Source: Phycisphaerae bacterium
Lineage (GTDB): Bacteria > Planctomycetota > Phycisphaerae > UBA1845
DNA: 64,000 nucleotides
NCBI GenBank assembly: GCA_963666835.2
Contig: CAXXGO010000006.1
Coordinates: 32,001 to 96,000 of the forward strand
Direction: 5' to 3'
Each line of letters starts with the position of its first letter. Position 1 is the first letter of the stretch. The notes below the pieces were generated by a model that had not been told where the DNA came from, ran no database searches, and was given only the letters and a program-made list of their open reading frames with translations. Below are positions 31,194 to 63,990 of this stretch, in pieces. Both the position numbers and the translations under genes were made by a program.

Positions 31194-31369
31194 TCGAGTA
31201 TCGGTCAAGGGCGGGTCGCTCACGCTCGCCGCCTGATTGCGCAGATCTTCATGGCCACGCAAGCGTGGACCATGGCACCCGGCATAACCCGCGTTCTTCC
31301 GGCAGGTCTCGTTCCTCGACCATGCCCTACAAAACTCGTCGTACGTTGACCGGCTTGTTCGGCGGCTTT

Positions 31370-48554: not shown

Positions 48555-48697
48555 GTGGGGCATGGTCGAGGAACGAAACCTGCCGCAAGGGCTATCTAAC
48601 GCACGGCTGCACGGCCGAGCTTACACCCTCGCGCTCGGCCGACCCCAAAGACCTTCATGGCCACGCAAGCGTGGACCATGGCACCCGGCACCCGGCA
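48555..48697 (+). repeat. degenerate family A REP plus intact family B hairpin (ATGGCCACGCAAGCGTGGACCATGGCACCCGG)
   Basis: Matches 31251-31282 and the intron flanks. Confidence 0.8.
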
Positions 48698-62618: not shown

Positions 62619-62825
62619 AGCCACGTTTCCTTAACTGCTTCGCCGGGAATCCAAGGTATACCGTCTTGAGCGTACTCGATTCCGGCAAACGGGCCATTAT
62701 AACTCCGCAGCCGAATCAGAATCGGTGCTCGGGCCGGGTGCTATGGTCCACGTTTGCGTGGCCATGAAGGTCTGCAGTCCCGTAGGGCACGGTCGAGGTA
62801 CGAGACCTGCCGCAATGGTGCCGGG

Positions 62826-63735
62826 GTCGGGATAGAACTCGGGCGCGCGCGCTTTTAGGTGGAGGGTTTCCAGATCCGCCCTTTCGGTTGCGGAGTGGGT
62901 TCACAGTTCCACCATGAGCCACGTTTCCCGAGGCCCCCCTACGATCCCGGACGGTCGGATTTCCCGAGTCCGGTTCTGACCTTGGCTTGTCCCGCCACTG
63001 CCTGCCCACAACCAAGGAAACTCAAACGCTGGCTCGTATACGCCCCTCTTGGCTGTGGTTTGCATGCGACGCTCGTCCACTCTTTAAGGGTACGCTCGAT
63101 CCCAGCTCAATGTCCGGGAGCGCCCCAGGACCGCCAAGTATCCAGGGTCCCTTTGCACGCTTCGGGCGTTACCCGTCACGTCGCAGCCTCGCGGGCTACG
63201 TCAGCGGGCATTACCCCGCCTTCATCGCTCATACGGGCCCATGCGCCGGACCAAATCCCCCTCGCCGCCTACGGTCGTTGCCTTGGTCGGCGAGTCTTCG
63301 CAGGTTGTCGCCAGTCCCTGCTGGGAGATGGCCCTTCCCGACGTTATCTCTGCAGATCTTTCCTTGGATGCCTGGGTCCCTACCGCGGCGGGTCGTCGAG
63401 GTGCACATTCCCGTTTCTTCCCTCGATGACGTCGGCCTTCCCCGCATGGCAATCGGGTCGGCTTTCCCGCAATAATCCGCTCCAGCGATTTCCCGAGCGG
63501 GCGTACTTTCGCAGCTGCAGCCATTCACTAATGTTCAGGCCTCCAAGTTTGCTTGCCACCCCGATCGCTCCCACCGCTGCAGTTCTGAGCCTGCAGGGCA
63601 GCCGTGGCGTTTTCGTTCGAGCAGAACACGTGCTGTTACCAGACACGTGCATCGAATAAGCTAGCCGTCCGAACCGGGAAACTGACGGCGAGGGGACTCT
63701 CACCCCATAAGATCCGCAGCCTTGTCGGCTGCTCC
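62826..63735 (-). ncRNA. ORF-less group II intron (910 nt) inserted in a family B REP-like repeat
   Basis: Domain V-like GAACCGGACTCGGGAAATCCGACCGTCCGGGATC (62976-62943); long domain VI ending CTATCCCGAC; removing it restores the repeat CCATGGCA|CCCGGCA; EBS1 loop at 63445-63451; no RT ORF. Confidence 0.85.
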
Positions 63736-63990
63736 TGCCATGGCCCACGCTTGCGTGGCCATGAAGGTCTTTCGGGATCGGCCGAGCGGGCGGGTATCAA
63801 CGTCGTCGCGCGGTCATGCCGTGGACCGTCCCGAAGGGACGAAGGCGAGTAGCCGCGGGTGGAGCGAAGCGGAACCCGTGGGTGAGATTCGCCCCCACAT
63901 GCTTCAGTCCCAAAGGGTCGGCGGGGGAGGGGGCGATGTGACCCAGGGTGGCACTGACGCGGCTACGCCGCTACGTTTACCCTGGGCTTT
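63736..63990. repeat. family B half-site (intron 5' exon) and family D REP elements
   Basis: Similar to 48633-48683 and 15461-15530. Confidence 0.75.

What the first reader, a model, noticed from the sequence alone, without database searches (positions are those of the whole stretch)
62826..63735. ORF-less group II intron whose EBS1 matches a multicopy REP-like hairpin
Seen: on the minus strand, 910 nt run from GGAGCAGCCGACAAGG to ...GAGTTCTATCCCGAC, with a domain V-like hairpin and no RT-coding ORF. Excising it rejoins GACCTTCATGGCCACGCAAGCGTGGGCCATGGCA|CCCGGCA, the same repeat found uninterrupted at ~31247 and ~48650. Inside the intron, the stem-loop CCCG-AUUGCCAUG-CGGG (plus 63441-63457) displays UGCCAUG, a perfect 7-nt complement of the last 7 exon bases CAUGGCA. 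Established: group II introns select targets by EBS1-IBS1 pairing, and ORF-less introns need an RT supplied in trans. Inference: this is a non-autonomous retroelement that homes into an intergenic repeat family, which gives it many low-cost landing sites and could make it a naturally repeat-targeted element.
Basis: partly seen in the sequence, partly recalled or inferred. Interest (0 to 1): 0.9.

Follow-up and report, generated by a model that had tools for sequence, protein, structure and literature searches.

The report
Protein-less group II intron in repeat
This 910-base stretch is a real self-splicing-type (group II) intron with no enzyme gene of its own, copied into a repeated DNA hairpin by base pairing, and it belongs to a widespread, apparently always gene-less intron family with an unusual catalytic hairpin.

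Summary
Confirmed. Window 62826-63735 (-) is a precise 910-nt insertion in a REP-like repeat. The genome holds 4 near-identical copies and two 3'-terminal fragments. Rfam gives no gathering-level hit, only 16 bits to group-II-D1D4-6. Even so, the element has full-length homologues (845-934 nt) in metagenomes and in genomes of at least nine phyla. On 59 of them a six-domain fold is supported: 96% of cells are paired and 141 of 191 pairs show compensatory change. Three guide segments covary with the flanks: EBS1 (7 nt), EBS2 (6 nt) and EBS3 (1 nt). No copy carries an RT gene. Host genomes do encode group II RTs, and this one has 13. Domain V reads AAC plus an extra purine instead of AGC. The 5' end is GGAGC and domain VI is enlarged, so domain-V-based surveys would miss the family. 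Retargeting and borrowing of an RT are known from Thermosynechococcus. The lineage itself looks like a new variant. I could not read Simon 2008 or the HYER paper. This scan noted what looks like the same family before on other DNA (e1-3922235).

The parts
62826..63735 (-). ORF-less group II-type intron, 910 nt (GGAGC...CCCGAC)
   Evidence: Precise interruption of the repeat. There are 4 copies differing at 6 positions and full-length homologues elsewhere.
63736..63742 (-). IBS1, CAUGGCA (last 7 nt of the 5' exon)
   Evidence: Pairs with EBS1 in all 4 copies. In the family, exon positions -1..-7 pair with alignment columns 327-333 in 84-91% of sequences, with 4-6 pair types per position.
63746..63750 (-). 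IBS2, GCGUG (exon -15..-11)
   Evidence: 5 bp with EBS2 GUACGC here, and 6 of 6 at the non-repeat copy (GCGUAU) (flanks). Family mean is 5.07 of 6 against 3.64 in 2000 permutations.
62825..62825 (-). IBS3, C (first base of the 3' exon)
   Evidence: C follows all 4 copies and both fragments. It pairs with column 400 in 51 of 55 distinct family sites, against 46% in permutations.
63739..63763 (-). REP-like hairpin CATGGCC-ACGCAAGCGT-GGGCCATG; its 3' arm supplies IBS2 and IBS1
   Evidence: Read directly. The repeat search found 52 places in the genome.
62819..62825 (-). 3' remainder of the interrupted repeat (CCCGGCA)
63445..63451 (-). EBS1, UGCCAUG, in the loop of hairpin GCC-GA-CCCG[..]CGGG-GAA-GGC
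   Evidence: The Rfam D1D4-6 alignment places it at the model's EBS1 loop. Covariation with the exon is shown.
63501..63506 (-). EBS2, GUACGC (directly after the conserved CGAAA)
63380..63380 (-). EBS3, G356
63338..63728 (-). Domain I, closed by element 8-21 pairing with 382-398
   Evidence: Closing helices 2 and 3 each have 3 of 5 pairs with compensatory change.
63245..63337 (-). Domain II
   Evidence: Helices 18-20.
63143..63243 (-). Domain III
   Evidence: Helices 21-26.
62978..63142 (-). Domain IV, structured, 165 nt, no ORF
   Evidence: Helices 27-32. 0 of 73 RT HSPs overlap any element by more than 30 nt.
62943..62976 (-). Domain V-like hairpin GAACCGGAC-UCGG-GAAAU-CCGA-CC-GUCCGGGAUC. 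It reads AAC where AGC is expected, has an extra purine opposite, and a CC bulge.
   Evidence: The upper helix covaries (columns 861/873 and 862/872). It resembles the domain V of the resident RT-B intron.
62829..62939 (-). Domain VI, 111 nt, with a variable distal subdomain (window 62854-62916)
   Evidence: Helices 34-35. Three distal types are seen, including short ones.
62833..62833 (-). Bulged A903, 8th nucleotide from the 3' end: the presumed branch point
   Evidence: Invariant in 59 of 59 sequences and unpaired between G-U and G-C pairs. The exact register within the G run is ambiguous.
31244..31284 (+). Uninterrupted copy of the target repeat (empty site)
   Evidence: C6:63244.
48650..48690 (+). 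Uninterrupted copy of the target repeat (empty site)
   Evidence: C6:80650.

Best explanation
The element is a non-autonomous group II intron retroelement. It is transcribed with its surroundings; in 3 of 4 copies it lies downstream of, and in the same direction as, a long ORF. The RNA folds into six domains. EBS2 (GUACGC), EBS1 (UGCCAUG) and EBS3 (G) hold the exons. It probably splices by branching at A903, helped by a reverse transcriptase/maturase made by one of the endonuclease-less group II introns in the same genome (RT-A, 12 copies, or RT-B, whose domains V and VI are most like this element's). The excised RNA-protein particle then reverse-splices into single-stranded DNA carrying GCGUG..CAUGGCA|C. 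That sequence occurs on one arm of about 50 REP-like hairpins. cDNA synthesis completes the copy, and aborted synthesis leaves 3' fragments. Shown here: the insertion and its exact boundaries, the multiple copies, the six-domain fold, the pairing of three guide segments with the targets, the lack of an ORF, and the presence of RT genes. Inferred: splicing activity, branching, which RT acts, and the replication-fork route.
For: Copies and flanks. There are 4 copies with 6 variable sites, and two 3'-terminal fragments of 77 and 72 nt. All 4 flanks pair 7 of 7 with EBS1, including a non-repeat site that also pairs 6 of 6 with EBS2.
Family. nhmmer finds full-length homologues with E down to 1e-164. 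71 of 80 titled genome loci are family members, drawn from at least 9 phyla.
Fold. 96.1% of cells are paired, against 35-45% when partners are slid. 141 of 191 pairs have changes on both sides, against 63-77 when slid. 0 of 500 shuffles reach the observed values.
Guides. EBS1 pairs 7 of 7 in 39 of 55 distinct sites. EBS2 averages 5.07 of 6. EBS3 pairs in 51 of 55. For each, 0 of 2000 permutations reach the observed value.
Boundaries confirmed independently. Removing the element in silico from L033 and L156 gives one unbroken RT alignment across the junction, aa 24-425 and aa 2-164.
RT supply. The genome has 14 RVT_1 matches, 13 of them in group II introns. RT-A scores 370 bits on TIGR04416 and has no endonuclease domain. 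All 4 other genomes checked that hold the element encode group II RTs above the cut-off.
Kinship with resident introns. There is a weak D1D4-6 match, and domains V, VI and the 3' GAC resemble RT-B.
Against: No Rfam family reaches its gathering score, and Intron_gpII does not match even at E <= 10. Domain V lacks the AGC or CGC triad and the AY bulge. The 5' end is GGAGC rather than GUGYG. No ligated-exon read was seen: only contigs could be laid, and none joined exon to exon. No relative was found in 60 genomes of the same family or order. Only 3 of about 50 suitable repeat copies are occupied, so mobility is either slow or recent. The constancy of domain V across the family is partly built in, because all outside loci were fetched with a pattern that fixes its two ends. 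The choice of helper RT rests only on co-occurrence and on likeness of domains V and VI.
Confidence: 0.85

Rival explanations
1. It is a recent ORF-deletion derivative of one of this genome's own RT-encoding introns. That is the usual origin of bacterial ORF-less introns, as in Thermosynechococcus.
For: The genome does hold such derivatives of another intron type: L011 (about 670 nt) and the mini-copy L010. L011 still carries the remnant of an RT C-terminus just before domain V. The 910-nt element shares the weak D1D4-6 match with the resident introns.
Against: Sensitive blastn finds no significant similarity to RT-A or to L011 (best E 0.099). tblastn with RT-A finds no ORF remnant (best E 0.37). 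Full-length ORF-less homologues occur across many phyla.
Confidence: 0.03
2. It is an RNA-only agent like the HYER ribozymes: an ORF-less group II RNA that cuts or invades DNA by hydrolysis, and whose spread or function does not rely on an RT.
For: It is ORF-less, multicopy and uses a short guide, as reported for HYERs. I know HYERs only through citing papers: passages of PMC11754743 and PMC12990946. Its catalytic hairpin is unusual.
Against: HYERs are described there as class IIC, 637 nt for HYER1, with a 6-nt target recognition site. This family is about 900 nt, has EBS1 + EBS2 + EBS3 and an invariant bulged A in domain VI. Its 3'-terminal fragments fit cDNA synthesis. Every genome checked that holds the element also has group II RTs (4 of 4). 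RNA alone cannot make a DNA copy.
Confidence: 0.07
3. The copies are inactive relics. The AAC triad and altered bulge may have killed catalysis, so the element now only persists.
For: Domain V departs from both conserved metal-binding motifs. Only 3 of about 50 target repeats are occupied. There is no splicing evidence.
Against: The same domain V is kept in hundreds of loci while its upper helix covaries. Copy sets 98-100% identical occur in several genomes: 13 in G065 and 4 full-length in G064. Copies sit in frame inside otherwise intact RT ORFs.
Confidence: 0.05
4. It is a DNA transposon that targets REP hairpins: a non-autonomous IS200/IS605-type element, an IS110-type element or a MITE.
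For: IS elements are known to target REPs (PMC1525189, table passage read). The insertion makes no target duplication.
Against: The ends show no terminal inverted repeats and there is no transposase. The element has a six-domain RNA fold with covariation. Three internal segments covary with the flanking DNA.
Confidence: 0.01

Closest known systems
ORF-less introns of Thermosynechococcus elongatus mobilised by the RT of sister introns (Mohr, Ghanem, Lambowitz 2010, PMC2882425; abstract and section headings read)
   Same: ORF-less copies rely on an RT made elsewhere in the genome. Families retarget through changed guide sequences. They insert preferentially into other introns and into non-essential DNA.
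   Different: Those introns descend from one ORF-containing intron within one genome (section heading). This family has no ORF-bearing member in 247 loci and spans many phyla. Domain V, the 5' end and domain VI are also atypical here.
Class IIC introns and their ORF-less HYER forms
   Same: They are found next to DNA hairpins. HYERs are ORF-less and multicopy (passages of PMC4424553, PMC11754743 and PMC12990946).
   Different: IIC introns have a CGC triad and very short guides, and they read the hairpin. This element has 7 + 6 + 1 nt guides, AAC in place of the triad, about 900 nt and a long domain VI. I could not read the HYER paper itself, so overlap with its data set is not excluded.
Nested ORF-less introns of Methanosarcina (Dai and Zimmerly 2003; title seen only in the reference list of PMC8919778; content recalled)
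   Same: ORF-less introns home into the RT ORFs of other group II introns. Family members do this at RT codon 63/64 and in domain V loops.
   Different: That case is archaeal and involves close relatives of the host intron. The copies in this window's genome sit in REP-like repeats, not in introns.
Rfam group-II-D1D4-6 (RF02005) and group-II-D1D4-4 (RF02003)
   Same: RF02005 matches the EBS1 region at 16-22 bits. RF02003 matches the 5' part of domain I in some family members at 45-51 bits.
   Different: These are partial models. The window element reaches no gathering score, and Intron_gpII (domains V-VI) matched none of the 11 family loci tested, nor the window.
Group II intron copies beside REPs in Pseudomonas putida KT2440 (Tobes and Pareja 2006, PMC1525189, table passage)
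   Same: A group II intron is associated with REP sequences (2 of 9 copies).
   Different: That passage describes no guide-to-repeat pairing and no ORF-less state.
Circularly permuted group II RNAs (Roth et al. 2021, PMC8637638, passages)
   Same: About 900 nt, ORF-less, widespread, with a non-standard pairing at the triad.
   Different: Those have domain order D5-D6-D1-D4 and keep AGC. This element has the standard order and is a bounded insertion.

Membership tests
Group II intron (ribozyme) | Six helical domains around a central wheel, with domain I closed by a long-range stem | tested here: met
   35 helices, 96.1% of cells paired, 141 of 191 pairs with compensatory change, and controls far lower.
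Group II intron (ribozyme) | EBS1-IBS1 pairing that defines the 5' splice or insertion site | tested here: met
   4 of 4 genomic copies. 39 of 55 distinct family sites pair 7 of 7. 0 of 2000 permutations reach the observed mean.
Group II intron (ribozyme) | Domain V: 34-nt hairpin with a 2-nt bulge and an AGC (or CGC) triad | tested here: not met
   A hairpin of the right size, with a 2-nt 3' bulge, is present. However, the triad position reads AAC with an extra purine opposite, and the bulge is CC or CU rather than AY. The canonical motifs are as stated in PMC4424553.
Group II intron (ribozyme) | Domain VI with a bulged A 7-8 nt from the 3' end | tested here: met
   A903 is invariant in 59 of 59 sequences, unpaired, and the 8th nucleotide from the end.
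Group II intron (ribozyme) | Boundary sequences 5' GUGYG ... AY 3' | tested here: inconclusive
   The 3' end AC meets it. The 5' end GGAGC does not. The resident RT introns of the D1D4-6 type also start atypically, with GAAAG, as shown by comparing empty and filled sites.
Group II intron (ribozyme) | Self-splicing or protein-assisted splicing with exon ligation | not testable with these tools
   Only contigs of public runs could be laid, and no exon-exon joint was seen. Indirect support: in-frame restoration of RT ORFs when the element is removed.
Mobile group II intron (retroelement) | Intron-encoded RT/maturase in domain IV | tested here: not met
   The 3 longest internal ORFs match no Pfam family. 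0 of 73 RT HSPs overlap an element. It is therefore non-autonomous.
IIB-like target recognition | EBS2-IBS2 and EBS3-IBS3 in addition to EBS1 | tested here: met
   EBS2 averages 5.07 of 6 against 3.64 in permutations. EBS3 pairs in 92.7% against 45.7%.
Class IIC / HYER | CGC triad, no EBS2, very short EBS1, insertion directed by a hairpin | tested here: not met
   The triad position is AAC, EBS1 has 7 nt and EBS2 has 6 nt. One copy lies at a site outside the repeat family. The IIC features are taken from passages of PMC4424553 and from memory.
Rfam Intron_gpII (RF00029) and group-II-D1D4-6 (RF02005) | Score at or above the gathering threshold | tested here: not met
   RF00029 gives no match at E <= 10. 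RF02005 gives 16 bits against a threshold of 49.

The most novel reading that the evidence does not exclude
This may be a member of a phylum-spanning lineage of group II introns that never encodes its own RT. The lineage has a rewired catalytic hairpin (AAC plus an extra purine instead of AGC, and a pyrimidine bulge instead of AY), a GGAGC 5' end and a modular, enlarged domain VI. It would live as a parasite of RT-encoding group II introns, much as SINEs live on LINEs. By changing three short guides it would retarget itself to REPs, to the domain V loops and RT genes of its helpers, and to its own 3' end. Because its domain V escapes the standard model, it would have been missed by surveys built on domain V.
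Probability: 0.35. Interest if true: 0.8.

Novelty: new variant of a known kind. Interest (0 to 1): 0.6.

Why it matters
Three reasons. [quoted passage not shown] This family fits that exception. Published surveys find ORF-less introns through Rfam RF00029 (PMC8919778, methods passage), and RF00029 does not see it. Second, a natural and apparently mobile intron without the AGC triad or the AY bulge bears on the shared active site of group II introns and the spliceosome. It offers a ready-made variant to test. Third, an RNA of about 900 nt that recognises about 14 nt and needs only an RT supplied in trans is a compact, reprogrammable retroelement. For this genome in particular, three intron families each aim at a different intergenic repeat. 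This shows how repeats give introns many harmless landing sites.

Tried and rejected
Rfam at gathering thresholds over the whole window gave nothing.

BLAST-level search of 60 related genomes gave nothing. The family is therefore patchy and cannot be traced by kinship.

The single-sequence MFE fold was only weakly better than shuffles (z = -2.4) and mispaired the 5' end. I dropped it in favour of the family fold.

I first read element 4-20 as a 5' hairpin. Covariation shows instead that these bases close domain I by pairing with element 382-398.

I first took AAC in domain V for a defect of this one element. The pattern scans showed it is the family norm.

I considered that the motif might be a domain of larger RT introns, because RT genes lie just downstream in some loci. 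This was rejected: those cases are insertions into RT ORFs or RT introns.

Reads: the four runs laid were all contigs. No exon-exon joint was seen, and the many 'skips' lie in the flanking repeats with short sides. This says nothing about splicing. RNA-library contigs 94-95% like the intron cover three parts of it, but DNA carry-over cannot be excluded.

The plasmid collection gave 3 partial matches with nothing annotated under them, and the viral contig collection gave 1 pattern match. Neither was followed up.

Papers not held: Simon et al. 2008 and Liu et al. 2024 (HYER). I read no supplementary files.

My literature searches for a description of this family found none. This does not show that none exists.
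Full report
OBSERVATION. Read on the minus strand, window 63735 down to 62826 is a 910-nt block. It begins GGAGCAGCCGACAAGG and ends GAGTTCTATCCCGAC. It splits the sequence ...GACCTTCATGGCCACGCAAGCGTGGGCCATGGCA|CCCGGCA. The unsplit sequence is a repeat. The boundaries cannot be shifted by even one base. The genome (6.02 Mb, 7 contigs, 61% G+C) holds four full copies that differ at only six positions. It also holds two pieces consisting of the last 77 and 72 nt. Three copies follow variants of the same hairpin. The fourth lies in unrelated sequence...GCGTATTCGTGGCA|CCAT. The three longest ORFs inside the element match no Pfam family at E <= 0.01.

No Rfam family reaches its gathering score in the window. 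With permissive settings the only group II match is group-II-D1D4-6 at 16 bits (E = 0.067). It covers the hairpin whose loop holds UGCCAUG. Intron_gpII, the model of domains V and VI, does not match at all. The single-sequence fold is only marginally better than shuffles. Sixty genomes of the same family or order have no BLAST-level relative.

I then took the hairpin that looked most like domain V, GAACCGGAC-N15-GUCCGGGAUC, and scanned public collections with it. Of the 80 genome loci that carry titles, 71 are family members and 9 are chance pattern matches. The members come from Bacillota, Actinomycetota, Acidobacteriota, Pseudomonadota, Planctomycetota, Nitrospirota, Nitrospinota, Fibrobacterota and Dormiibacterota.

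STRUCTURE. I aligned 59 non-identical full-length members (alignment A1, mean column identity 66%). RNAalifold predicts 191 pairs, of which 141 keep pairing through changes on both sides. Counting on that structure gives 96.1% of cells paired. Sliding the partners by 1-3 columns gives 35-45%. The covariation score is 0.50, against 0.08-0.10 when slid. 0 of 500 shuffles reach any observed measure.

The helices form the group II plan:
- Bases 8-21 pair with 382-398 and close a large domain I.
- Domain II is element 399-491.
- Domain III is 493-593.
- Domain IV is 594-758. It is structured and has no ORF.
- Domain V is a 34-nt hairpin at 760-793.
- Domain VI is 797-907.

Domain VI has an invariant unpaired A (A903, eighth from the end) between G-U and G-C pairs. 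It is followed by GAC.

TARGET RECOGNITION. For every alignment column I asked how often it can pair with each flanking base.
- Exon positions -1 to -7 pair best with columns 327 to 333, in antiparallel order. Complementarity is 84-91%, with 4-6 pair types per position.
- The first base of the 3' exon pairs with column 400 in 93% of sequences.
- A third segment, the six bases after a conserved CGAAA, pairs with the exon a few bases upstream of IBS1.

On 55 distinct sites the results are as follows:

| Guide | Observed | Mean of 2000 permutations of flanks among introns |
|---|---|---|
| EBS1 | 7 of 7 in 39 sites, at least 6 in 44; mean 6.13 | 3.12 |
| EBS2 | mean 5.07 of 6 | 3.64 |
| EBS3 | pairs in 51 of 55 (92.7%) | 45.7% |

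No permutation reaches any observed value. Relatedness among some sites inflates these numbers, but the sites are very diverse.

In this genome EBS1 UGCCAUG pairs with CAUGGCA, and with CGUGGCA at the fourth site. EBS2 GUACGC pairs with GCGUG, and with GCGUAU at the fourth site. EBS3 G pairs with C. The intron therefore reads about 13-14 nt on the 3' arm of the hairpin. Nothing shows that the hairpin shape matters, and the non-repeat site argues that it does not. The full motif occurs at 47 empty sites, all within the repeat, and at 4 filled sites.

INDEPENDENT CHECK OF THE BOUNDARIES. In two unrelated loci (L033, a metagenome contig, and L156, an acidobacterial MAG) a family member sits inside the RT gene of another group II intron. 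Cutting it out at the predicted ends gives one unbroken alignment to this genome's RT-A across the junction (aa 24-425 and aa 2-164). Other members sit in the domain V loop of other introns (GAGCCGUGUGCGGGAG|...|AACCGCAUGCACGGUUC), in the first hairpin of a D1D4-6-type intron, between domains V and VI, or directly behind another copy of themselves.

NO RT OF ITS OWN, BUT RTs NEARBY. tblastn with the two resident RTs against all 247 loci gives 73 HSPs in 35 loci. None overlaps an element by more than 30 nt, and all 73 lie on the element's strand. The window's genome has 14 RVT_1 matches:
- 12 copies of one intron, RT-A. Its RT has 501 aa, scores 370 bits on TIGR04416 and has only the RVT_1 domain. 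Its RNA scores 169 bits on D1D4-6.
- One RT-B (472 aa; D1D4-6 147 bits; Intron_gpII 41.9 bits).
- One other RT.

The element has no significant sequence similarity to these introns and no ORF remnant. It is therefore not a local deletion product. This contrasts with L011 and L010, which are canonical ORF-less derivatives in the same genome. Its domains V and VI and its 3' end are nevertheless closest to RT-B. Compare GAGCCGGAUGCGGUAAUUCCGCACGUCCGGAUC-UGU-GGGGGGCCUGGG...UCUACCCGAC with GAACCGGACUCGGGAAAUCCGACCGUCCGGGAUC-GUA-GGGGGGCCUCGGG...UCUAUCCCGAC.

Of five other genomes checked, four hold real copies (6, 1, 10 and 13 pattern matches), and all four encode group II RTs above the curated cut-off. 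The fifth genome's match was a chance hit, and it has no full group II RT. In Gracilibacillus massiliensis all 13 copies, 98-100% identical, carry the family's domain V.

WHAT IS ODD. Reviews give AGC (or CGC) and an AY bulge as the metal-binding motifs of domain V, and GUGYG...AY as the ends (PMC4424553, passages). In this element:
- The triad position reads AAC.
- The strand opposite has one extra purine: A762 faces G790 and A791.
- The bulge is CC or CU.
- The 5' end is GGAGC.
- Domain VI is 65-125 nt long, with a conserved GGAAACGUG...GCGCGCGCC stem and at least three kinds of distal insert.

The two upper-helix pairs of domain V covary (U-A to C-G, and C-G to G-C), so the hairpin is under selection. 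A caveat applies: my fetch pattern fixed the two ends of domain V, so their constancy is partly built in. Three observations not tied to the pattern agree with it. All copies in three genomes found by whole-element search carry the pattern. Metagenome variants 94-95% identical show no listed change in domain V, although 24 rows of that table were not shown. A neighbouring decayed copy still reads AAC. The resident RT introns also start atypically, with GAAAG, as shown by comparing empty and filled sites, and they have G opposite A at the middle triad pair.

EXPRESSION. Only Logan contigs were available. The source-like runs cover the locus. A sediment metagenome and a sediment metatranscriptome hold variants 94-95% identical. 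One metagenome contig carries the intron's 5' end behind the same 7 nt, CATGGCA, in an otherwise different flank. No exon-exon joint was seen, which contigs would rarely show in any case. In 3 of 4 copies the nearest long upstream ORF runs in the element's direction. The window copy lies between two co-directional ORFs.

COMPARISON AND NOVELTY. Borrowed RTs, drifting guide sequences and insertion into other introns are established for Thermosynechococcus (PMC2882425, abstract). REP association of a group II intron was tabulated for P. putida (PMC1525189). ORF-less IIC introns are known as HYERs (citing papers only). The finding as written is therefore a new member of a known kind. What goes beyond that is the lineage: ORF-less in every one of 247 loci, spread over at least nine phyla, with a domain V that the standard model cannot see. 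The review by Zimmerly and Semper names exactly this as the way ORF-less introns could have been overlooked. The large survey by Miura et al. finds ORF-less introns through RF00029. RF00029 matched none of the 11 family loci I tested, nor the window. Rfam's D1D4-4 and D1D4-6 models do touch pieces of the family. My seven literature searches found no description of it. However, I could not read Simon et al. 2008 or the HYER paper. This scan's own notes describe what seems to be the same family in another genome (e1-3922235), and many ORF-less introns in repeats. Those are unchecked notes and are not evidence.

VERDICT. Classification: a new variant of a known kind. Interest is 0.6. It would be higher if the atypical domain V proves catalytically active and the family proves undescribed.

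Noticed in passing
G000 C6:319890-321900 and 11 other copies (L013-L020); empty site near C1:22615: The 12-copy RT-encoding intron (RT-A) also sits in a repeat. It follows the 3' arm of a long hairpin with a variable loop, at ...GGAATGGGTGGGGG|ACGGAT. Its EBS1 loop contains CCCCCA, which matches UGGGGG. It starts with GAAAG rather than GUGYG.
   Followed up: partly
L011:~907-1577 (G000 C6:~259365-260035) and L010 (C6:~234330-234490): A canonical ORF-less intron (AGC triad, D1D4-6 172 bits) and a mini-derivative of about 160 nt (5' 70 nt plus domains V-VI) both sit at GAGACCTG|CCGC, inside a third repeat (GTAGGGCACGGTCGAGGTACGAGACCTGCC). The EBS1 loop holds CAGGUC. This genome therefore has three intron families aimed at three different repeats.
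   Followed up: partly
window 62782-62811 (-) and 62732-62772 (-): Directly downstream of the intron lies a copy of that third repeat (GGCAGGTCTCGTACCTCGACCGTGCCCTAC). It is followed by a second, degenerate copy of the REP-like hairpin whose IBS1 reads CATAGCA. The repeats form composite units.
   Followed up: no
G000 C1:376008-376079: The 72-nt 3' fragment of the intron is flanked on both sides by the 7 nt CCCGGCA. The upstream side carries an intact repeat. This looks like a 5'-truncated copy joined by microhomology.
   Followed up: no
window 63827-63881 (-): A weak match to the Acido-Lenti-1 RNA (RF01687), 22.6 bits against a gathering score of 37, E = 0.018. It lies upstream of the repeat.
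   Followed up: no
G064 (genome of locus L189), e.g. C1:2434344-2434455: Ten solo 111-nt pieces equal to domain VI plus the 3' end of the family member. Several copies stop about 6 nt after domain V. Domain VI may behave as a separate module or as a hot spot for insertions.
   Followed up: no
G061 (genome of loci L155, L202, L204), e.g. C1:2683191-2688365: A composite of family element, RT intron with its RT ORF split by about 1.75 kb, and a second family element occurs three times. The nested structures seem to be copied as units.
   Followed up: no
L056:1082-1984 with its neighbour; also L065, L063, L213, L157, L172: Head-to-tail tandem copies separated by 0-100 nt. In several of these, EBS1 does not match the preceding copy's 3' end, so the origin of the arrays is unexplained.
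   Followed up: no
L212:1800-1879: A c-di-GMP-I-GGC riboswitch (61 bits, above gathering) lies about 450 nt downstream of a family member in a Planctomycetia MAG.
   Followed up: no
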